From an uncultured Candidatus Saccharibacteria bacterium (lineage in GTDB: Bacteria > Patescibacteriota > Minisyncoccia > Phycocordibacterales > PALSA-1337): 64,000 nucleotides of DNA. The notes under the pieces are model-generated. The model made no database searches. It was not told where the DNA came from and saw only the letters and a program-made list of their open reading frames with translations. Of this stretch, positions 875 through 39,661 are shown one piece after another. Location: the NCBI GenBank assembly GCA_964367745.1, contig CAYIYK010000002.1:4447-68446 (forward strand), written 5' to 3'. The stretch's first letter is position 1. Each line of letters starts with the position of its first letter. The position numbers and the translations under genes were made by a program.

Positions 875-2452
875 ATGAAAGAAAATATTAAGATATTTAA
901 AAATAGGCCAGTTGCATATTTTTGTGCTGAATATGCTCTTTTTGACCACACTCCATTGTATACAGGTGGGCTTGGTATTCTTGCTGGAGACTATATAAAT
1001 GAGATCGTAAAGCAAAACTTCCCTGCTATGGCGATAGGACTTTTTTATCATAAAGAACATTTACACGGTCTTGAATTGAGTCGAGAGAGGAAAACTCCGA
1101 GCGAACTTGGATTAGAATTATTAAAGGACAAAGATGGAAGTATTTTAAAAATACCAATTTTCCTAGGTGATCATAGTGCGAATGTACAGGTATGGAAATG
1201 GAGCAAAGGACAATTGACTCTTTTATTATTAGATACACAAGTTGAAGAAAACAGTCCTTATGATTGGACTATAACTGATACTCTGTATGTTGAAGATCGA
1301 GACTTAAGACTAAAACAAGAGATAATATTAGGAATTGGAGGAATGAAAGTTATTAAAAAACTAAACATTAATCCTTCGGTATATCATTTGAATGAAGGTC
1401 ATTCTTCTTTTATGACTTCAGAATTGATTTCAAATATTGTTGAAGAAAATAAAGTAAGCTTCGGTGAAGCAGTTAAGATCGCAAGAGAAAGAATCGTCTT
1501 TACAAATCATACATTGGTACAAGCTGGACAAGAGATGTTTGATGTAAATGCAATGAAAAGTATTTTTTCAGAAAATTTTATCAAGCTTGGTTATGAAGAA
1601 TCAGTAAAAATGTTTTCAATGACCAACCTAGCATTGAATATGTCATCAAAAGTGAATGCTGTAAGTGTTCTACACGGCAAAATGGCAAAAGATTTGTGGG
1701 GTAAATACAATAAAGAAGTAGTTACGAATGGAATTTTTATAGAGAGATGGGATAATCTTAAGTATTACAGTCACAAGGAGAGTAAAAGGAAGCTTATAGA
1801 CTATATTAAACAAAACAATAAAATAACTTTAGATGAAAATGTTTTGATTCTAGGTTGGTCAAGAAGATTTGTAGAATACAAAAGACCTTTAGCAATACTT
1901 GGAGATGTGGAGAGATTTAAGAAAATTGCAAAAGATGAAAATAGAAAAGTAGTTATCGTATATTCAAGTATTGTAAACAAGACATACGATAAAGAAAATC
2001 ATTTTATAAAGGAATTAGAGGATATTATCGATAACGATCTACAGGATAATGTTATATTCATTCCAAACTACGATATGGATATAGCTAAGATGATGGTTTC
2101 CGGTTGCGATGTATGGCTAAATACTCCAGAAGTTGGGCGAGAAGCATGTGGTACAAGTGGAATGAAAGCTTGTCTTAATGGTGTATTACCTCTAAGTACG
2201 AGCGATGGGTGGATAGATGAAGTAGATCTTACGAATATCGGTTGGAAAGTTCAAGATGGAGAAATAACCAAGAATCTATTAGATATTCTTGAACAACAGA
2301 TAGTACCGAGCTTCTATGATGATAAGAATAATTGGAATGATATGATGAAAAATTCAAGGAATCTAATTTTGAATCAATTCAGTACGGAGAGGATGTTGAA
2401 TGAATATATTAAGAAAATGTATTTACCTATTTTTTCAAAATCTTCTCATTAA
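875..2452 (+). CDS. glgP: Alpha-glucan (glycogen/maltodextrin) phosphorylase, GT35 family, short form
   Basis: N-terminal AYFCAEYAL...GGLGILAGD motif and PLP-lysine motif EACGTSGMKACLNG, both characteristic of GT35 phosphorylases. Confidence 0.75.
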   Translation: MKENIKIFKNRPVAYFCAEYALFDHTPLYTGGLGILAGDYINEIVKQNFPAMAIGLFYHKEHLHGLELSRERKTPSELGLELLKDKDGSILKIPIFLGDHSANVQVWKWSKGQLTLLLLDTQVEENSPYDWTITDTLYVEDRDLRLKQEIILGIGGMKVIKKLNINPSVYHLNEGHSSFMTSELISNIVEENKVSFGEAVKIARERIVFTNHTLVQAGQEMFDVNAMKSIFSENFIKLGYEESVKMFSMTNLALNMSSKVNAVSVLHGKMAKDLWGKYNKEVVTNGIFIERWDNLKYYSHKESKRKLIDYIKQNNKITLDENVLILGWSRRFVEYKRPLAILGDVERFKKIAKDENRKVVIVYSSIVNKTYDKENHFIKELEDIIDNDLQDNVIFIPNYDMDIAKMMVSGCDVWLNTPEVGREACGTSGMKACLNGVLPLSTSDGWIDEVDLTNIGWKVQDGEITKNLLDILEQQIVPSFYDDKNNWNDMMKNSRNLILNQFSTERMLNEYIKKMYLPIFSKSSH

Positions 2453-3398
2453 ATTGTCCGAGTAATTTCTCAGTATTTATTTCCCTTTCACCATAATCAG
2501 ATCTCAAGACTAGAATAGCAATTGGGTATACGGTACCGTTTATTTCCTGATTAAATAATGAAACCATAGCTTCTTTTGCTTGTTGAGTTCTCCCTGTCTT
2601 TCCTCCAATAAAATCTTCTCTCATCGAAAATGGATTGATATTTATTAGATGATGATATCCATGATCTGTAGTTGTAGCAATATCGATTTGATATCTCTTT
2701 GAAATATCTAGTATCCCCTTTTCTGAAGTATGGAGATATTTAGTTAGTGTCAGTAGGTCTGATGCGCTTGATACATTATCAGGACTTAGTCCTGATGAAT
2801 CCTTAAACTTTGTATTATGCATACCAATTTCTTGAGCAAATGCATTCATTTGTTCCATAAAATCTTTGTACCCAAATGAATCAGCGAATGCTACAGCAGC
2901 ATCATTACTCGATTCAAGTAGCAACACATGAAGCAATTCATCTGGTTTGAATTTCTCACCCAAAACCAAATGCCCCGCATCGCCATAAGCGTCCAGAGCA
3001 TTTTGGTTAATTTCAATATCCTTTTGTAAATCAAATAAATGATGTACAACAAGAGCAGTGTAAAGCTTACTAACTGAAGCGATTGGGAATACTTTATCTG
3101 AATTAAAGTCTATATATTTCTCTCCAGTAACAAGGTTTGCAACAAGGTAAGATTCGGCAGTTATATATGGTCTTGGAACACTTGGTTTTATTTTTGGCTT
3201 CTCTATTATATTGTTATGATCATCAATAAGTATTTTTGGATCAATCTCAATATTGTCTTCAACTTTATCTCCAAGAAACTTTGATATTTGAGGTTGTTCC
3301 AAAGCCACTCTATAAAATCTCTCATTAACATCTTTTATAGATGCAACGGCGATGATCACTATGAGGCAGAATATAAGTAAGTACTTGTTACGGTTCAT
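2427..3398 (-). CDS. D-alanyl-D-alanine carboxypeptidase (serine peptidase S11, PBP5/6-like), membrane-anchored
   Basis: N-terminal TM segment, SxxK motif (SVSKL) and SxN motif (SSND). Confidence 0.7.
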   Translation of the reverse strand: MNRNKYLLIFCLIVIIAVASIKDVNERFYRVALEQPQISKFLGDKVEDNIEIDPKILIDDHNNIIEKPKIKPSVPRPYITAESYLVANLVTGEKYIDFNSDKVFPIASVSKLYTALVVHHLFDLQKDIEINQNALDAYGDAGHLVLGEKFKPDELLHVLLLESSNDAAVAFADSFGYKDFMEQMNAFAQEIGMHNTKFKDSSGLSPDNVSSASDLLTLTKYLHTSEKGILDISKRYQIDIATTTDHGYHHLININPFSMREDFIGGKTGRTQQAKEAMVSLFNQEINGTVYPIAILVLRSDYGEREINTEKLLGQFNEKILKK

Positions 3399-17753: not shown

Positions 17754-18278
17754 TTAGATTTTTTTAAATATCATACCATAATGATGGTCTCCAGCGTCGA
17801 ATGTCTTCTCGATTTTGAAACCATTTTTTTCAAAAAGACCTTGGGCAAGAGATTGTGGCACTGCTTCAGCTGGCTTAAAACTACTATCCTCATTCCAATC
17901 TATGACCATCAATTTTCCTCCTGACTTTAGTAATCTTTTTATCTCTAATGCTACATTGTCTCTGTTTTTTGGATCAATTTGGAATAAAGTATTAGAAAAT
18001 ACAACACGCTCAGCTATAGCTTCGCGAACCTTTGTACCACCAAGCTTCTCTACATCGCCATTTATTACTTCTATATTATGTAGACCCGCACCCATAGCAG
18101 AGTTTTTTATTCTAGTTAAAAGATCTTGCTGTATATCTACAGCATAGACTCTTCCAGATGGACCTACCTTTTTTGCTAGCTCTATAGCATAAAAACCAGA
18201 ACCTGATCCAATATCAACAATCTTCATACCATGTTCAACACCAAGTTCTGCAATATTTTTTATTGGATCAGAAAACAT
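17754..18278 (-). CDS. Class I SAM-dependent methyltransferase
   Basis: Motif I VDIGSGSGFYAIELA; 174 aa. Confidence 0.7.
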   Translation of the reverse strand: MFSDPIKNIAELGVEHGMKIVDIGSGSGFYAIELAKKVGPSGRVYAVDIQQDLLTRIKNSAMGAGLHNIEVINGDVEKLGGTKVREAIAERVVFSNTLFQIDPKNRDNVALEIKRLLKSGGKLMVIDWNEDSSFKPAEAVPQSLAQGLFEKNGFKIEKTFDAGDHHYGMIFKKI

Positions 18279-21898: not shown

Positions 21899-22537
21899 CT
21901 ATTCATTCACTGAATCGAGCAGGATAATGTCACCTTCTTTACCTTCTAGATCCTTTTTCTTAAGTGTGAGCTTTGATTCTGATTTTGGATTCTCTCCTGC
22001 TTCTTTCAAAAAGACTTTCAAAGCATCATTTGCTCCGACATCGCCGTAATGCATCGGTATTATTATTTTTGGTTCAAGAGAAACTGCGAGTTTGTATGCT
22101 TTTACTGGATCCAATACTCCATCACCACCTATTGGTACAAAAAGAATGTCTATTTCGTCCAAAGCTTCTACTGTTTCATTCTTTAATTCTGAATTGTTCA
22201 AAGCACCTAGGAAACAAATGTTCATATTTTCCAAAGATACTGTATATATTGTGTTCACTAGATCCTTTCCGCCATACTTTGACTCTGAAGGAAGCCCTTT
22301 TATAAAAACTTCTTTGACTTCATATTCACCAGGACCTGATATAACGAAAGGCTTTTTGTCTCCATGACTTACCTGTTCAACACCGTTGAAATCAGCATGA
22401 TATGTAGTAGAAAGAACAATATCAGCACCGAAACGACTAGATTTTAGTTTTGAATCTTTTGAAATAGGATTAAAAGCCAAAGTTGTATCTCCGAATTGAA
22501 CCTTAAAAAATTCTCCTCCGTAATATGTAATTATCAT
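21899..22537 (-). CDS. Metallo-beta-lactamase-fold hydrolase (UPF0173-like)
   Basis: Pattern conserved in small MBL-fold hydrolases: ...FGADIVLSTTYHADF...PIGG...IIPMHYGD. Confidence 0.55.
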   Translation of the reverse strand: MIITYYGGEFFKVQFGDTTLAFNPISKDSKLKSSRFGADIVLSTTYHADFNGVEQVSHGDKKPFVISGPGEYEVKEVFIKGLPSESKYGGKDLVNTIYTVSLENMNICFLGALNNSELKNETVEALDEIDILFVPIGGDGVLDPVKAYKLAVSLEPKIIIPMHYGDVGANDALKVFLKEAGENPKSESKLTLKKKDLEGKEGDIILLDSVNE

Positions 22538-22578: not shown

Positions 22579-23253
22579 ATGCAAGAAAATATATGGGAAA
22601 AAGAGTACAAAAACCCCACTCTAGTAAGTCTCAGTGATATTCCGGCACAATGTGTGCGCGATTTTGTGCGCTTCTTAAGAAAAGAAAGAAGTGTAGAGAT
22701 TGATAATAAAAATATACTAGACCTTGGTTGTGGTAATGGAAAAAATAGTCACTATATAGCTGAACAAGGTTTAAATAATAAAATCACTGGAATCGAAATA
22801 TCCGAAACCGCTCTTTCATTTGCAAAGAATCTAGTCCCAAACGGGAATTTTATAAAACAAAGTATTGGAACTCCTCTCAACTTCCCTGATTCCTCTTTTG
22901 ATATTATTTTAGATGTTACAAGCTCAAATTCTTTAAATGAAAATGAACGCGATATTTATTTAAAAGAAATTCACAGACTTATAAAGCCTGATGGATACTT
23001 TTTTCTAAGAACACTATGTAAAGATGGAGACAAAAACGCTCAAAGTCTACTAAAAACAAATCCAGGCAAAGAATATGATACTTATATTATGCCTTCACTT
23101 GGTCTTACTGAGAGAGTTTTTTCAAAAGAGGATTTGATAAAAATGTATTCAATATTTGGCGAACCTTTATATTTAAAAAAAGAGACTCACTATACAAAGT
23201 TCAACAATCAGTCATATAAGCGGAACTTTTGGGTTGGGGTGTGGAAAAAATAG
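22579..23253 (+). CDS. Class I SAM-dependent methyltransferase
   Basis: Motif I ILDLGCGNGKNSHYIAEQG. Confidence 0.7.
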   Translation: MQENIWEKEYKNPTLVSLSDIPAQCVRDFVRFLRKERSVEIDNKNILDLGCGNGKNSHYIAEQGLNNKITGIEISETALSFAKNLVPNGNFIKQSIGTPLNFPDSSFDIILDVTSSNSLNENERDIYLKEIHRLIKPDGYFFLRTLCKDGDKNAQSLLKTNPGKEYDTYIMPSLGLTERVFSKEDLIKMYSIFGEPLYLKKETHYTKFNNQSYKRNFWVGVWKK

Positions 23254-23306
23254 ACAAATACAAATCAAATATTACAAAAGTATAGGCGTATGTTATAGTA
23301 CTTACG

Positions 23307-23561
23307 GATCGATATTCCTATGAAAACATCAAGAGACGGTTCGTGTATACCGAGTTGCACGAGAGTAAGAGTGGTATTCTCACCTCACACACTCGCCCTT
23401 CGAGAGAAGGTCCAACAAGAGCTCAGGATGCTCGAACAAGTACCTGGAGCCGTACCGCAGGTTAACATTGGTGGCTTTCCACCAAGGACTTTTGTAACAG
23501 ACAAAGTCTGATGATACTCATTTATCGAAACTTCGCATAACACATATGCGGAGTTTTTTTA
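23307..23561 (+). ncRNA. Candidate structured sRNA 1 (about 255 nt, about 50% GC), unknown family. It contains a 63-codon ORF that could instead be a small protein.
   Basis: Promoter TTACAA - 16 nt - TGtTATAGT at 23273-23300. Intrinsic terminator cttcgcata-acaca-tatgcggag + TTTTTTT at 23531-23560. GC content far above the flanking DNA. Lies between convergent genes. Confidence 0.3.
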
Positions 23562-23601
23562 ATTCAATTGCTTTTTTAGTTAAATCAGTTATTATATAGA
23601 T

Positions 23602-23687
23602 GTGTCTGCGGGTCGTCAGACCTATCTAGTCCTTTGTGAGCTGGAGACAGACACATTAAAGTATGCCACCTTGTGTGGCATTTTTTA
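23602..23687 (+). ncRNA. Candidate sRNA 2 (about 85 nt)
   Basis: Promoter TTGCTT - 16 nt - TATTAT at 23568-23595. Long-range stem GUGUCUG...CAGACAC. Terminator atgccac-cttg-tgtggcat + TTTTTT at 23663-23687. Confidence 0.3.
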
Positions 23688-23801
23688 ATAATCATTATCC
23701 ACAACTTTCTTGATTTTATGGGTAAAAAAAGTTAGTATATTCTTATGGACTGGAGGTATCTTCCAGTCGGCAAAGCCTCGAGAAATCGGGGTTTTTGCTT
23801 T

Positions 23802-24644
23802 TTAAGGCCATTCTTTTAAGCCATAATCCCCATAATCACCAAGATAGATATATTTACGAACCAAGTCAAAAAGCTTATTATCTATATCCTTAGGGTCTCT
23901 TGCGTGACGTGCAAAAGGGTAAGTACAGTAATCTACCATTTGGGTACCATTAACATTATCTTGTTTTGTAAAGAATAGGATTTGTTCATTTATATTTTTG
24001 AATCGATCTTTTGAACAATAGAAAGTTCCATTATTTCTTGCATTAGTTAATACTCCTTGTATCTTTCTACTTTCTTTATTTCCTCGTGTTTCGAAGATGA
24101 TTTTTGCTGTATCATTATTAAGAAAATGACCTATTCTTTCAAGGACCCAATCAACATTGCGTAAATATAAATCTCCAGGATTGTATTTCTGACCAGAAAT
24201 ACTTTCAAATTTTTCAGCTTTTTTCAAAAGTTTCATTTTATTAATGGATGAGGATATGATAGTTACAGAACTTTTTTCCAAAGTCTCAATCATCTTTTCT
24301 TTAAAGTAGGTATAATTATCTTCATTGAGTAGTTCTTTAAAAATACCGTCCTTCCTTCTTATTTCATTAGAATGAAAATGTATATCTCGGTTATGCCAAA
24401 ATTTTTCCTTAATTTCATCCATTGATGGGACCATTAGTTCCTGATAGACTTTTCTATCAACGATTAGAGCTGTGACTGTCATAACTGGAAAAACAGTAGG
24501 ATGATCATACTTTTTAATATCTTTATGCATGAATGGGTCTCCAGTTTCATCAATAAAAACCAAGTATCTTTCTGGTACCTTAAAAATCTCATTTTCTTTC
24601 AGATCACATTTCTGTATTTGCATCTTAGTGGCTGTATTATACAA
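23802..24644 (-). CDS. DUF3800-family protein
   Basis: N-terminal YLVFIDETGDP matches the DUF3800 signature (x-IDESG). Confidence 0.6.
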   Translation of the reverse strand: MYNTATKMQIQKCDLKENEIFKVPERYLVFIDETGDPFMHKDIKKYDHPTVFPVMTVTALIVDRKVYQELMVPSMDEIKEKFWHNRDIHFHSNEIRRKDGIFKELLNEDNYTYFKEKMIETLEKSSVTIISSSINKMKLLKKAEKFESISGQKYNPGDLYLRNVDWVLERIGHFLNNDTAKIIFETRGNKESRKIQGVLTNARNNGTFYCSKDRFKNINEQILFFTKQDNVNGTQMVDYCTYPFARHARDPKDIDNKLFDLVRKYIYLGDYGDYGLKEWP

Positions 24645-24821
24645 GAAATATTATTCCTTTAAAAAAAAATATTTCCTAGACATTTCCCCTTTTTTATACT
24701 ATAGTACCCTCCAAGGCATTTATATTATTTATTTAATATTTAAGCCATTTATTAACAACTATATACGCTAAACCCGCACATTTATATTATTAGTTTAAAA
24801 AGCGGACCGTATATTATAAAT

Positions 24822-26081: not shown

Positions 26082-26594
26082 TCATTTACGGACATATTTT
26101 ATTTTTTCTTTAGTGTATTGATCTTCTAGATAATCGAAGAATTCTGAACCCAATACTTGGTATAACGATGAAGCATATTGTTTGTTGGGAAACAACATTT
26201 TTCCAAATTTACTCTTCTTTATTAGATAATCTACCAACTTTTTATAATCACCATCTCCAGATACGATGAGAACTTTATTAAAAACTTCTTGATCAACTAA
26301 TTTCTTCATAAGTTCGAAAATGATATCAGAATCTACATTTCCCTTCTTATTTCCTCTAAGAGTTTGTGAATGTTCTTTGAATAGTAGATTGAAACCAGCT
26401 TTCTCTAAATTTCTATATAAATCTCGTTCTTTCTCTGTCATATAGCCTATAAAATAATAAGCTTCCTTTACATGATATTTTTCAGTTAAATAAATTCTAA
26501 AACGAGTATGGTCTATAGACCATCCATTATCTCTTGTACCGAGATACAGATTTTGACCATCGATAAAAGCGATGTTTGATATTTTTTCATTCAT
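26082..26594 (-). CDS. NYN/LabA-like PIN-domain protein
   Basis: IAFIDGQNLY...DSDIIFELM...LIVSGDGDY. Confidence 0.65.
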   Translation of the reverse strand: MNEKISNIAFIDGQNLYLGTRDNGWSIDHTRFRIYLTEKYHVKEAYYFIGYMTEKERDLYRNLEKAGFNLLFKEHSQTLRGNKKGNVDSDIIFELMKKLVDQEVFNKVLIVSGDGDYKKLVDYLIKKSKFGKMLFPNKQYASSLYQVLGSEFFDYLEDQYTKEKIKYVRK

Positions 26595-26682: not shown

Positions 26683-27267
26683 TTACCCCGCATTAAACAC
26701 ACTCATAGCCTTCTCTCTCCCCTCTTTAATCAAAACTGGGATTATCTCTTCTACAGTCTTCCCCATCTTTTTTATCTCTTTCATTTCATCATCTTTAAAC
26801 TTACCCAATATAAATTTCTCTATCTTTTCATCTCCATGTGGAACTTTTGCATCACCTTTTGCGGTTTCTGGAGCAACACCAATTCTTATTCTTACAAAAG
26901 CTTCGGTCTTTACTGATTTTATTATTGATTCAATACCATTATGTCCTCCTGAACTTCGATTGTATGAAATTCGAATTTTCCCCATAGGTAAATTGAAATC
27001 ATCATAAATAACAACTAACTTTTCAGCTGCTTTTATACTTTTTACAAGACTCGCGACAGATTTCCCTGAATTATTCATAAAAGTATCTGGAGCAACTAGC
27101 TTTACTTTTTCTTTTCCTACTTTTATTTCAGAAATGTGAGCATTTATTTTTTTATCAAAAGAAAATTCTTCATCTGTTAACGATTGTAAAATAATTCTTC
27201 CGGTATTGTGACGAGTATTTTCATATTCTTCACCCGGATTACCCAAACCAACGATTATGTATGCCAT
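26683..27267 (-). CDS. pth: Peptidyl-tRNA hydrolase
   Basis: MAYIIVGLGNPGEEYENTRHNTG. Confidence 0.9.
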   Translation of the reverse strand: MAYIIVGLGNPGEEYENTRHNTGRIILQSLTDEEFSFDKKINAHISEIKVGKEKVKLVAPDTFMNNSGKSVASLVKSIKAAEKLVVIYDDFNLPMGKIRISYNRSSGGHNGIESIIKSVKTEAFVRIRIGVAPETAKGDAKVPHGDEKIEKFILGKFKDDEMKEIKKMGKTVEEIIPVLIKEGREKAMSVFNAG

Positions 27268-39079: not shown

Positions 39080-39661
39080 TTAATTCCTAAAAAATCTTTT
39101 TATTAGAAGAAAGTACAATGTTCCAACTGTCACCACTAGTACTATTGGGTAAAGCCATATTTCAAACCCGGTATCAGTACCAACAACAACAGTAGTAAGG
39201 TTAAGAACAACTCCAATGAAAAATAGAGTCCAAGCAAACAGACTTTCACTTTCGGGGTTAACCATAGCTTTTTTAATTGTAGAAATGTAACCGCTAATAT
39301 AAATAATAAGATTCATTAGAAAAGCAACAAATGCATTCCCAGTAATTAACCAGATGCCCAGACTGGAGATTGCTATTACTAAAGAAATTTTATCAGTTTT
39401 AGACCATCCACCAACACCAAAGCGAATAGACAGAATAAATATAATAAAACATCCTACAGCATCAGCGATTGGAACCCATATTGCTTCATTTGTACCTGTT
39501 TCCTTTACTCCTAGGAGAATAACTACTGTTGAAAGTGCCCATATGAACCAGCTTGCACGGTTTGGAGTATCAGTACCCTTAATTACTTCATAGGTATATG
39601 GAATGTACCCAGAGATTAGGAATAGACCAGATATCAAACCGAGTGTTTCAGGAAATGTCAT
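39080..39661 (-). CDS. Polytopic integral membrane protein (about 6 TM), hypothetical
   Basis: Hydropathy read by eye. Confidence 0.5.
   Translation of the reverse strand: MTFPETLGLISGLFLISGYIPYTYEVIKGTDTPNRASWFIWALSTVVILLGVKETGTNEAIWVPIADAVGCFIIFILSIRFGVGGWSKTDKISLVIAISSLGIWLITGNAFVAFLMNLIIYISGYISTIKKAMVNPESESLFAWTLFFIGVVLNLTTVVVGTDTGFEIWLYPIVLVVTVGTLYFLLIKRFFRN

What the first reader, a model, noticed from the sequence alone, without database searches (positions are those of the whole stretch)
23254..23801. GC-rich intergenic region with two promoter-and-terminator-delimited candidate sRNAs between convergent genes
A 550-bp gap between convergent genes has about 50% GC against a background near 30%. 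Unit 1: TTACAA-16-TGtTATAGT promoter (23273-23300), about 255 nt of GC-rich sequence, then a clean intrinsic terminator (cttcgcata-acaca-tatgcggag + T7, 23531-23560). Unit 2: TTGCTT-16-TATTAT (23568-23595), an about 85-nt segment with a long-range stem GUGUCUG...CAGACAC, then a terminator (atgccac-cttg-tgtggcat + T6). I checked unit 1 against remembered RNase P, tmRNA and SRP-RNA consensus motifs without a convincing match. It could be 6S RNA, another structured RNA, or an mRNA for the 63-codon ORF 23320-23511, which has no obvious SD.
Basis: seen in the sequence. Interest (0 to 1): 0.55.

Follow-up and report, generated by a model that had tools for sequence, protein, structure and literature searches.

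The report
Three stacked small-RNA genes, accessory islet
The gap holds three separate small-RNA genes inside a 1.4-kb accessory insertion of a Patescibacteria genome; two belong to conserved RNA families absent from Rfam, each normally tied to one accessory protein gene (a DUF3800 nuclease-like gene, a 181-residue protein of unknown function).

Summary
The features are real, but there are three promoter-plus-terminator units, not two. They sit in a 1,426-bp insertion that a close relative lacks exactly.

This roughly 57-nt RNA has a 26-nt invariant core. It lies tail-to-tail against the DUF3800 gene here, in L011 and in all 7 other DUF3800 loci fetched. It looks like a new DUF3800-associated RNA. 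Eleven such motifs of unknown function are published; none matches.
- **Unit 2 (23600-23687).** This is a three-way-junction RNA with covariation support. Thirty metagenome contigs carry it, 23 of them tail-to-tail with a conserved 181-residue protein gene. The window lacks that gene, so this copy is an orphan.
- **Unit 1 (about 23306-23560).** Found only in one genus-level clade. It is most likely a structured RNA, but the 63-codon ORF is not excluded.

No unit is 6S, SRP, RNase P or tmRNA. The proposed function, RNA partners or regulators of neighbouring accessory genes, is inferred. Interest is moderate.

The parts
23251..23256 (+). Left copy of the direct repeat TAGACA. TAG is the methyltransferase stop codon. 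This marks the left edge of the insertion relative to the empty site.
   Evidence: The empty site in L012 reads ...AAAAATAGACATTTCCCC.... The window reads TAGACA|AATAC... on the left and ...TTTCCTAGACA|TTTCCCC on the right.
23272..23299 (+). Unit 1 promoter: -35 TTACAA (23272-23277), 16-nt spacer, extended -10 TGtTATAGT (23291-23299).
   Evidence: Found by the scan. The -10 box is invariant in all 5 lineages.
23306..23560 (+). Unit 1 transcript, about 255 nt, 46-53% GC over its core. A genus-restricted candidate structured RNA. The start is inferred from the -10 box.
   Evidence: Fold z = -3.8. Conserved at 77-94% identity in L006, L009, L010 and L011 at the same locus. Absent from L012 and from all 80 species loci fetched with the S1 protein, L012-L091. 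No Rfam hit.
23320..23511 (+). 63-codon ORF inside unit 1. Coding status is unresolved; translation is judged unlikely.
   Evidence: Open in all 5 lineages, but those lineages were found through this ORF. Variable columns by codon position are 19/19/23, and dN/dS is 0.38-0.75. Flanking genes give dN/dS of 0.01-0.09. Synonymous excess has p = 0.025. No family among 1.84 billion representative proteins. AlphaFold2 pLDDT is 61.
23527..23560 (+). Unit 1 intrinsic terminator: 13-bp stem, 5-nt loop, T7 run.
   Evidence: The stem is kept in 5 lineages with only G-U-compatible changes (helix 10).
23568..23595 (+). Unit 2 promoter: TTGCTT, 16-nt spacer, TATTAT.
   Evidence: Read in the sequence. A TTGnnn, 17-18-nt spacer and TAtAnT box sit at the same distance from GTGTCTG in nearly all 30 homologues, with unrelated spacers.
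23600..23687 (+). Unit 2 small RNA, about 87 nt. P1 is 23602-23608 with 23648-23654. P2 is 23610-23614 with 23619-23623 (GUCA loop). P3 is 23625-23632 with 23638-23645. A linker AUUAAAG follows, then the terminator 23663-23681 and U6. This is an orphan copy of a Patescibacteria RNA family.
   Evidence: Covariance-model hit of 96.5 bits, E = 6e-18. Family alignment A6. 94% of cells paired against at most 52% in slid controls, 7 pairs with compensatory changes, and 0 of 500 shuffles reach the covariation score. The partner protein gene is absent from the window.
23710..23738 (+). Unit 3 promoter: TTGATT (23710-23715), 17-nt spacer, TAGTAT (23733-23738).
   Evidence: Read in the sequence. -35/-10 hexamers are kept in register in 8 distinct loci while the spacers differ.
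23745..23803 (+). Unit 3 small RNA, about 57 nt. The invariant core GGACUGGAGGUAUCUUCCAGUCGGCA is 23747-23772, with a 9-bp hairpin at 23748-23768. The terminator is 23772-23795 plus a U run that reaches the DUF3800 stop codon.
   Evidence: Fold z = -4.6. Terminator found. The same RNA lies immediately 3' of, and convergent with, DUF3800 homologues of 58-81% identity in 7 of 7 fetched loci with different neighbouring genes.
23802..24623 (-). DUF3800 gene (273 aa from the ATG; 280 aa from an upstream TTG at 24644). Presumed protein partner of unit 3.
   Evidence: Pfam PF12686, E = 1.6e-10. The DE motif (D25, E26) and QxxD (Q228, D231) are conserved. An RNase H-like fold is reported in PMC7736814 and PMC10910872.
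24677..24682 (+). Right copy of TAGACA, the right edge of the insertion. It also serves as the -35 box of the S1 gene promoter (TAGACA, 17-nt spacer, TATAGT at 24700-24705).
   Evidence: The S1 upstream region is conserved across many species loci.

Best explanation
**What it is.** The 550-bp gap is a stack of three independent small-RNA genes, each with its own sigma-70-type promoter and intrinsic terminator. They lie inside a 1.4-kb accessory islet (23257-24682) inserted between a methyltransferase gene and the ribosomal-protein-S1-like gene of a Patescibacteria (Paceibacteria) genome. Across related species this gap is a hotspot for restriction-modification, MazF-like, NYN and similar cargo.

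- **Unit 3** is the cognate RNA of the adjacent DUF3800 (RNase H-like) gene. The two travel together as a tail-to-tail module.
- **Unit 2** belongs to a widespread RNA family that normally sits tail-to-tail with a conserved 181-residue protein gene. Its terminator hairpin overlaps the last 10-12 codons of that gene. In this window the protein gene is gone and the RNA survives as an orphan.
- **Unit 1** is a genus-restricted transcript of about 255 nt. It is most likely a structured non-coding RNA of the same general kind; in L009 it abuts a convergent 257-residue gene.

**How it most likely works (inferred, not shown).** Each RNA controls or partners its accessory protein in the manner of an RNA antitoxin or regulator. 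The sequence-invariant hairpin or junction would serve as a protein-recognition element. The convergent 3' overlap would give antisense pairing with the protein's mRNA. Orphan RNAs would persist as stand-alone copies that keep their fold.
For: **Anatomy**
- Promoters, terminators and folds are documented.
- G-U pairs in the stems fit the plus strand only.

**Islet and hotspot**
- The empty site in L012 is an exact match, with a TAGACA repeat at both edges of the insertion.
- The gap ranges from 90 to 2,622 bp in related species. Its cargo includes EcoO109I plus an N6/N4 methylase, PemK/MazF, NYN and HAD genes.

**Unit 3**
- The 26-nt core is invariant next to DUF3800 in the window, L011 and 7 of 7 other loci.
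- The DUF3800 proteins there are 58-81% identical to the window's, and their neighbouring genes differ.
- DUF3800 genes are already known to attract unrelated structured RNAs, several with terminators (PMC5737381).

**Unit 2**
- 30 metagenome contigs carry it, with GC from about 30% to about 55%.
- Covariation supports the fold.
- 23 of 30 contigs have the 181-residue gene convergent and abutting.
- A locus chosen by the protein alone (L130) also carries the RNA, at 102.7 bits, overlapping the gene by 31 nt.
- Diverged RNA variants accompany paralogous proteins in L026, L027, L030 and L038.
- The two substitutions between the orphan copies in the window and L011 both keep pairing.

**Unit 1**
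- GC and GC3 stay well above neighbouring genes in all lineages.
- dN/dS is 0.38-0.75 against 0.01-0.09 in flanking genes.
- The most conserved stretch coincides with two hairpins. As protein, that stretch is predicted disordered.
Against: - No expression data exist; transcripts are inferred from sequence signals.
- The functional link between RNA and protein rests on genomic association only. No toxicity, binding or cleavage has been tested.
- The 181-residue protein has no recognisable fold or domain. Its Pfam LPD3 hit is below threshold and Foldseek found no PDB match.
- Seven of 30 unit 2 copies, plus the window and L011, lack the protein, so the RNA may act independently of it.
- Unit 1 has only weak covariation: 28/500 and 34/500 shuffles reach the observed values.
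- Unit 1 also shows a weak coding-like signal: synonymous fraction 0.37 against 0.25, p = 0.025, and 2/4/8 variable columns by codon position in the last third.
- The antisense strand of unit 1 folds equally well.
- The unit 2 homologues were found with an exact 22-mer, so the invariance of P2 and most of P1 is partly by construction.
Confidence: 0.6

Rival explanations
1. Unit 1 is the mRNA of a small, fast-evolving 63-residue accessory protein, and its GC richness reflects foreign origin or amino-acid composition.
For: - The ORF is open with the same start and stop in all 5 lineages.
- The only indel is 12 nt and in frame.
- Synonymous codon differences are in excess over column shuffles: 0.37 against 0.25, p = 0.025. 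The other forward frames give 0.14-0.17.
- The last third of the ORF varies 2/4/8 by codon position.
- GC1 > GC2 > GC3 in three of the five lineages.
- Lack of a Shine-Dalgarno sequence is not an argument here: only 14 of 64 genes have one.
Against: - The homologues were found through the ORF translation, so ORF retention is partly ascertainment.
- Overall codon-position variation is flat at 19/19/23.
- dN/dS is 0.38-0.75 against 0.01-0.09 in neighbouring genes.
- GC3 is 0.35-0.43 against 0.22-0.25 in neighbours, including the foreign DUF3800 gene.
- No relatives were found in a profile search of 1.84 billion proteins, in Pfam, or in PADLOC and PHROGs.
- AlphaFold2 gives pLDDT 61, with the most conserved part disordered.
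- The ATG lies 20 nt from the -10 box, whereas apparently leaderless genes here have 6-12 nt.
Confidence: 0.25
2. The hairpins are only bidirectional terminators or insulators between convergent genes, and the upstream promoter-like hexamers are chance matches in AT-rich DNA.
For: - Promoter-like sites are not enriched in the region: 9 found against 8.4 expected.
- The hairpins abut the 3' ends of minus-strand genes.
- The hairpin at 23663-23681 scores on both strands.
Against: - The -35/-10 hexamers keep their register in nearly all of the 30 unit 2 loci and in the 8 unit 3 loci while the spacers are scrambled.
- The non-terminator domains are the most conserved parts: the unit 2 three-way junction and the unit 3 26-nt core.
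- U tracts and G-U pairs fit only the plus strand.
- Orphan copies keep the fold without any convergent partner gene.
Confidence: 0.07
3. Unit 1 (or another unit) is a divergent housekeeping RNA: 6S, SRP, RNase P or tmRNA.
For: It is GC-rich and structured, has its own promoter and terminator in an AT-rich genome, and its size is near that of 6S or large SRP RNA.
Against: - No Rfam match over unit 1 even at E <= 10.
- No tmRNA by ARAGORN.
- Precisely absent from L012 and from all 80 related species loci at this position.
- Restricted to one genus-level clade.
- The predicted fold is multi-branched, not a 6S-like rod.
Confidence: 0.02
4. The RNAs are not regulators but functional cofactors, guides or substrates of their partner proteins. 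For example, unit 3 could be the RNA on which the RNase H-like DUF3800 enzyme acts, by analogy with the non-coding RNA of type VII retrons.
For: - The invariance is in sequence, not only in structure: the 26-nt core of unit 3.
- DUF3800 is the effector of type VII retrons, which carry a non-coding RNA (PMC7736814), and it is linked to Cas12a2 loci (PMC10910872).
- Eleven unrelated RNA motifs accompany DUF3800 genes (PMC5737381).
Against: - No reverse transcriptase or cas gene lies in the islet or its flanks.
- Orphan unit 2 copies exist without the protein.
- Nothing distinguishes this reading from the regulator reading by sequence alone.
Confidence: 0.25

Closest known systems
DUF3800-I to DUF3800-XI RNA motifs (Weinberg et al. 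2017, PMC5737381; for example Rfam RF02969, RF02968)
   Same: A conserved structured RNA sits next to a DUF3800 gene, on either strand. It is often followed by an intrinsic terminator and is not a 5' leader. Function is unknown. Unit 3 fits this description in 9 of 9 loci examined.
   Different: No match to any Rfam model, including these motifs. Unit 3 is very small (about 57 nt: one 9-bp hairpin plus the terminator). It is sequence-invariant, has its own promoter, and always lies tail-to-tail with the gene in a Patescibacteria DUF3800 clade.
drum, skipping-rope and FuFi-1 motifs (same paper): highly conserved RNAs with 3' terminators, the first two tied to a nearby protein family
   Same: Unit 2 is highly conserved, ends in a terminator, is not a leader, and is strongly associated with one protein family encoded nearby on the other strand.
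   Different: The fold differs (a three-way junction of about 55 nt) and there is no Rfam hit. The partner is a 181-residue Patescibacteria protein unrelated to DUF3800 by profile comparison. I could not read the paper's supplement to compare the partner proteins.
Type I toxin-antitoxin pairs with 3'-overlapping antisense RNA (for example Bacillus subtilis txpA/RatA, bsrG/SR4; from my own knowledge)
   Same: Convergent small RNA and protein gene with overlapping 3' ends, located in accessory DNA, with orphan RNAs occurring.
   Different: The partners are 181-273-residue soluble proteins, not short hydrophobic peptides. The most conserved part of the RNA lies outside the overlap. Toxicity has not been tested.
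Type III toxin-antitoxin systems (ToxIN and similar; from my own knowledge)
   Same: A structured RNA presumed to bind and neutralise a nuclease-like protein of about 170-270 residues, in a defence-island context.
   Different: No tandem RNA repeats. The RNA is not upstream on the same strand but convergent with its own promoter.
Type VII retrons (reverse transcriptase + non-coding RNA + DUF3800; PMC7736814)
   Same: A DUF3800 effector accompanied by a dedicated non-coding RNA.
   Different: No reverse transcriptase gene in the islet. The RNA is far smaller than a retron msr-msd.

Membership tests
   Rfam 15 gave no hit at gathering scores. At E <= 10 there was no hit over unit 1. ARAGORN found no tmRNA.
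6S / SRP / RNase P / tmRNA | Housekeeping distribution: present in close relatives | tested here: not met
   Unit 1 is precisely absent from L012 (S1 protein 99% identical) and from the other species loci at this position. Whole genomes could not be searched.
DUF3800-associated RNA motifs | Conserved RNA consistently adjacent to DUF3800 genes in different genomic contexts | tested here: met
   Unit 3 lies next to the DUF3800 gene in the window, L011 and 7 of 7 fetched homologue loci.
DUF3800-associated RNA motifs | Match to one of the 11 described motifs (Rfam models) | tested here: not met
   No DUF3800-* family appears among hits at E <= 10 over 23150-23900. The library holds RF02969 and RF02968 (PMC11701678).
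DUF3800-associated RNA motifs | Conserved secondary structure shown by covariation | tested here: inconclusive
   The hairpin is sequence-invariant, so no covariation is possible. Terminator-stem changes are compatible with pairing.
Type I toxin-antitoxin (3'-overlap class) | Convergent small RNA overlapping the 3' end of the partner gene | tested here: met
   Unit 2 overlaps the 181-residue gene by about 31-35 nt in L130 and others. Unit 3's U tract reaches the DUF3800 stop codon.
Type I toxin-antitoxin (3'-overlap class) | Toxin is a short hydrophobic peptide | tested here: not met
   The partners are 181-residue and 273-residue soluble proteins.
Type I toxin-antitoxin (3'-overlap class) | Protein is toxic and the RNA relieves the toxicity | not testable with these tools
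   Needs expression experiments.
Type III toxin-antitoxin | Tandem-repeat RNA upstream of the toxin gene on the same strand | tested here: not met
   The RNAs are single-copy and convergent.
Retron (type VII) | Reverse transcriptase gene adjacent to the non-coding RNA and DUF3800 | tested here: not met
   Genes in and around the islet are a methyltransferase, DUF3800 and S1. No reverse transcriptase domain was found.
Riboswitch / 5' leader | A same-strand gene downstream under its control | tested here: not met
   Each unit ends in a terminator facing a convergent gene or the next promoter.
Small protein gene (ORF63) | Purifying selection on the protein: third-position bias and low dN/dS | tested here: inconclusive
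   Codon positions vary 19/19/23 and dN/dS is 0.38-0.75. Weak synonymous excess, p = 0.025. The last third varies 2/4/8.
Small protein gene (ORF63) | Membership of a wider protein family or a confident fold | tested here: not met
   Only itself and repeat-driven spurious hits among 1.84 billion representatives. No hits in Pfam, PADLOC or PHROGs. pLDDT is 61.

The most novel reading that the evidence does not exclude
Patescibacteria carry a previously undescribed class of mobile two-gene modules. In each, a tiny, sequence-invariant, separately promoted RNA is the obligate partner (antitoxin, activator or substrate) of an accessory protein encoded tail-to-tail. The DUF3800-plus-unit-3 pair and the 181-residue-protein-plus-unit-2 pair (with its diverged paralogous pairs) would be two independent instances. 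This window would preserve a stack of one intact module and two orphaned RNAs. If so, the unit 3 pair offers a minimal, tractable system for solving the long-open question of what DUF3800-associated RNAs do.
Probability: 0.35. Interest if true: 0.75.

Novelty: new variant of a known kind. Interest (0 to 1): 0.6.

Why it matters
**An open question becomes testable.** Structured RNAs that shadow DUF3800 genes have been known since 2017, and the papers I could search report no function for them. Unit 3 is a very small example in which the sequence, the promoter, the terminator and the partner gene are all defined. That makes co-expression, binding and cleavage tests straightforward.

**A new RNA family in a poorly charted phylum.** Unit 2 defines a conserved RNA family in Patescibacteria, a phylum whose non-coding RNAs are almost uncharted. 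It comes with a conserved partner protein of unknown fold and with co-diverged paralogous pairs. That pattern is the usual signature of a functional RNA-protein system.

**Annotation.** These GC-rich islands should not be called as short ORFs, as unit 1 currently is in public assemblies. The methyltransferase-S1 gap is an accessory-gene hotspot in this lineage.

Tried and rejected
- **Known RNA families.** Rfam at gathering scores and at E <= 10 on the window, and on 12 related loci, assigned nothing to any unit.
- **Phage origin.** blastn of the gap against phage genomes found nothing. Viral-contig scans for the unit 1 and unit 3 cores found nothing. The one viral hit for a unit 2 19-mer is a chance match in GC-rich coding DNA.
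- **Metagenome scan for unit 1.** A degenerate 3'-domain pattern found nothing. The collection does not even hold the known L010 contig, so this is uninformative.
- **Other copies of unit 1.** nhmmer with the unit 1 alignment against all held loci found no copies outside the one clade.
- **Hammerhead reading by eye** (CUGAUGA...GAAAC in unit 1). Rejected because the core positions change in L010, the stem II region cannot pair, and position 17 is G.
- **RNase P P4-like and SRP Alu-like or helix-8-like resemblances by eye.** Rejected: the order and motifs do not fit, and Rfam found nothing.
- **Homology of unit 1 to the unit 2 superfamily** (shared GUAACAGACA and CAUUGG...CCAAG with L030). Not significant: p = 0.02 for the best of five comparisons.
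- **Trans targets.** No complementarity of 14 nt or more between any unit and the rest of the window.
- **Relationship of the 181-residue family to DUF3800.** hhalign probability 0.2%.
- **Terminal inverted repeats.** None seen by eye at the insertion ends; only the TAGACA direct repeat is present.
- **Strand of unit 1 from folding energy.** Both strands fold alike.
Full report
**Observation**

The gap 23254-23801 lies between a SAM-dependent methyltransferase gene (22579-23253, +) and a DUF3800 gene (23802-24623, -).

- GC reaches 0.46-0.53 only over about 23300-23500. Elsewhere the gap is 0.28-0.43, against a local background of 0.23-0.42.
- Terminator-like sites are strongly enriched: 7 found against 0.8 +/- 1.0 in shuffles. 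Promoter-like sites are not enriched on their own: 9 against 8.4.
- There are three strong plus-strand terminators in the gap, not two (a weaker hairpin at 23468-23485 also scores). That unit has TTGATT (23710-23715), a 17-nt spacer and TAGTAT (23733-23738), a 9-bp hairpin (23748-23768) and a terminator (23772-23795 plus a U run).
- All three units fold better than shuffled sequence: z = -3.8, -4.8 and -4.6.

**Organism and context**

Neighbouring genes include gyrA, an S1-domain protein and peptidyl-tRNA hydrolase. Searching species-representative genomes with the S1 protein returned 80 loci. All are Patescibacteria metagenome-assembled genomes labelled Paceibacteria, Taylorbacteria, Nomurabacteria and similar.

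The closest locus, L012, has an S1 protein 99% identical to the window's. There the methyltransferase stop codon runs straight into the S1 promoter...AAAAATAGACATTTCCCC.... In the window the same TAGACA occurs twice, at 23251-23256 and at 24677-24682. Everything between the two copies is a 1,426-bp insertion relative to that empty site: units 1-3 and the DUF3800 gene. The right-hand TAGACA is also the -35 box of the S1 promoter.

Across the other species the methyltransferase-S1 gap ranges from 90 to 2,622 bp. Its cargo includes an EcoO109I-type restriction enzyme with an N6/N4 DNA methylase, a PemK/MazF-like toxin, a NYN-domain protein and a HAD hydrolase. The gap is an accessory-gene hotspot.

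**Not a housekeeping RNA**

- Rfam 15 gave only a tRNA elsewhere in the window at gathering scores.
- At E <= 10 the only hits in the gap were terminator-driven chance matches, and none covered unit 1.
- ARAGORN found no tmRNA.
- nhmmer with the unit 1 alignment found no copy in any of the 80 species loci.

**Unit 3**

The DUF3800 protein has 86 relatives in the protein collection. I fetched seven loci for proteins 58-81% identical to it. Their neighbouring genes are unrelated to one another: CYTH, peptidase M23, a ResIII helicase, AhpC, UvrD, ClpB and others.

In every locus the same small RNA gene lies immediately 3' of the DUF3800 stop codon, on the opposite strand. The 26-nt core GGACUGGAGGUAUCUUCCAGUCGGCA is invariant apart from one loop base in L126. 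A terminator follows it, and -35/-10 boxes precede it in conserved register with scrambled spacers. G-U pairs in both stems fit only this strand.

The literature places this in a known but unexplained phenomenon:
- Weinberg et al. (PMC5737381) described eleven mutually unrelated RNA motifs, DUF3800-I to -XI. They lie beside DUF3800 genes on either strand, several with terminators, and their function is unknown.
- DUF3800 has an RNase H-like fold and is the effector of type VII retrons (PMC7736814). It also accompanies some Cas12a2 loci (PMC10910872).
- The Rfam library holds these motifs (PMC11701678), and none matches here.

Unit 3 is therefore best described as a new, very small DUF3800-associated RNA. 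The window's DUF3800 protein keeps the conserved DE and QxxD motifs.

**Unit 2**

An exact 22-mer from unit 2 found 30 metagenome contigs whose GC ranges from about 30% to about 55%. In all but a few, a TTGnnn, 17-18-nt spacer and TAtAnT promoter sits about 7 nt upstream of GUGUCUG. Each copy ends in a hairpin plus a U run.

The 30 distinct sequences support this structure:
- a three-way junction with P1 of 7 bp, P2 of 5 bp with a GUCA loop, and P3 of 7-8 bp with a variable tip;
- a linker ACUAAAG;
- the terminator.

On that structure 94% of cells are paired, against at most 52% when partners are slid. Seven pairs show compensatory changes, and no shuffle of 500 reaches the observed covariation score. 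The invariance of P2 and most of P1 is partly a consequence of the search pattern.

In 23 of the 30 contigs the RNA is convergent with a conserved gene of about 181 residues. The last 10-12 codons of that gene (…EVLKNATxSDxL) are encoded on the other strand of the terminator hairpin. Compensatory changes in that stem alter the protein tail.

A locus chosen through the protein alone (L130; its protein is 53% identical to the query) also carries the RNA. It scores 102.7 bits and overlaps the gene by 31 nt.

The protein family has 161 clusters, all named hypothetical and all from Paceibacterota or Patescibacteria where named.
- It has only a sub-threshold Pfam LPD3 hit.
- Its AlphaFold2 model is reasonably confident (pLDDT 81), but Foldseek found no PDB match.
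- It is unrelated to DUF3800 by profile comparison.

Paralogues at 24-29% identity, in L026, L027, L030 and L038, are each accompanied by a diverged RNA. These RNAs share the same plan: a closing stem (AUGUCUG/CAGACAC in L030), an expanded P2, a linker (UAUAAG in L030, UAUAAAAG in L027) and a terminator. They lie at the expected position and give weak model hits. Two of these modules lie in the methyltransferase-S1 hotspot.

The window has no such protein gene, so its unit 2 is an orphan. So are the copies in L011 and in seven of the metagenome contigs. The two substitutions between the window and L011 orphans both keep pairing (U-G to C-G, and G-C to G-U). This suggests the orphan is still under selection.

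**Unit 1**

Translating the 63-codon ORF was a useful proxy for a nucleotide search. It found four diverged copies (70-89% protein identity), all at the same locus. L006 and L010 carry unit 1 alone. L009 carries it tail-to-tail with a 257-residue gene that has no Pfam hit. L011, like the window, carries it with units 2 and 3 and DUF3800. Unit 1 is thus independent of the DUF3800 module and restricted to one genus-level clade.

Coding tests give a mixed but mostly negative picture.

*Against coding*
- Variable columns by codon position are 19/19/23, and dN/dS is 0.38-0.75. The flanking methyltransferase and S1 genes give 0.01-0.09 for the same genomes.
- GC3 is 0.35-0.43, against 0.22-0.25 in neighbours including the foreign DUF3800 gene.
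- A profile of the five sequences finds no family among 1.84 billion representative proteins.
- AlphaFold2 gives pLDDT 61, and the most conserved segment (residues 46-63) is disordered. In the RNA that segment forms two well-kept hairpins.

*For coding*
- The ORF is open in all five lineages, although they were ascertained through it.
- The one indel is 12 nt and in frame.
- Synonymous differences are modestly in excess (0.37 against 0.25 in column shuffles, p = 0.025).
- The last third of the ORF varies 2/4/8 by codon position.

*Neutral points*
- Absence of a Shine-Dalgarno sequence is not informative. Only 14 of 64 genes have one, and many have a -10 box 6-12 nt from the ATG. The ORF63 ATG is 20 nt from its -10 box, which fits neither pattern well.
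- Covariation support for a specific fold is weak with five sequences.
- The antisense strand folds equally well.

I rate unit 1 as a structured non-coding RNA at about 0.6. A small-protein mRNA is at about 0.25. The remainder covers a dual-function transcript or something else.

**Mechanism (inferred)**

The shared anatomy is a small, separately promoted RNA placed tail-to-tail with one particular accessory protein gene, inside variable islands. Its most conserved part lies outside the antisense overlap. The RNA variants have co-diverged with the protein paralogues.

This anatomy points to RNA-protein partnership. The most economical reading is an antitoxin-like or regulatory RNA that is recognised by its protein. 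Through the 3' overlap it can also pair with the protein's mRNA. A cofactor or substrate role, as in retrons, cannot be separated from this reading by sequence. None of it has been tested.

**Verdict**

The housekeeping-RNA idea is rejected. Two of the three units are new members or variants of a known but unexplained kind: protein-linked, terminator-bearing structured RNAs. Interest is moderate (0.6).

Noticed in passing
window, all gene starts (for example 2427-3398, 17754-18278, 21899-22537, 23802-24623, 26683-27267, 39080-39661): Only 14 of 64 long ORFs have a Shine-Dalgarno-like motif. Many have a TATAAT-like box ending 6-12 nt before the ATG. This suggests widespread leaderless or very short-leader mRNAs in this organism.
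   Followed up: partly
window 24683-24821 (S1 gene upstream region): The roughly 140-bp S1 leader is conserved across many species loci. It includes AACCCGCAC...AAAAGCGGA, which can pair (CCGC/GCGG). It may be an autoregulatory leader of the S1 gene. It has no Rfam hit.
   Followed up: no
window 26082-26594 (-), between the S1 gene and pth: The NYN-domain gene is absent from L006-L008, where pth follows S1 directly. L030 and L038 carry a unit-2-like RNA plus a paralogue module just after S1. The S1-pth gap therefore looks like a second accessory hotspot.
   Followed up: partly
L011 396-510; L025 2071-2184: L011 has a fourth unit between units 1 and 2, with a perfect TTGACT, 17-nt spacer, TATAAT promoter, about 75 nt of GC-rich sequence and a weak terminator. 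L025 has an 87%-identical copy, a few hundred bases from a PemK/MazF-like gene.
   Followed up: partly
L056 3386-3720; L057 3370-3700; also the L050, L051, L054, L069 and L081 gaps: More distant species have ORF-poor stretches of 43-46% GC in the same methyltransferase-S1 gap, with promoter-like and terminator-like signals. They show no similarity to units 1-3 and have no Rfam hit. These may be further lineage-specific RNAs.
   Followed up: partly
L009 5228-6001 (-): A 257-residue gene with no Pfam, PADLOC or other homologue in the held loci abuts the unit 1 terminator tail-to-tail. This is the only hint of a protein partner for unit 1.
   Followed up: partly
window 22579-23253 (+): The methyltransferase flanking the hotspot gives a PADLOC hit to mad2 (E = 8e-20). 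This is probably generic methyltransferase-domain similarity. The gene is conserved in relatives whatever the cargo.
   Followed up: no
L014 683-1360: The methyltransferase orthologue is split by an in-frame stop (ORFs 683-1036 and 1058-1360). It is either a pseudogene or an assembly error.
   Followed up: no
L111 314-574: Only residues 95-181 of the 181-residue protein are alignable next to an intact unit 2. This may be a decaying partner gene, intermediate between a full module and an orphan RNA.
   Followed up: no
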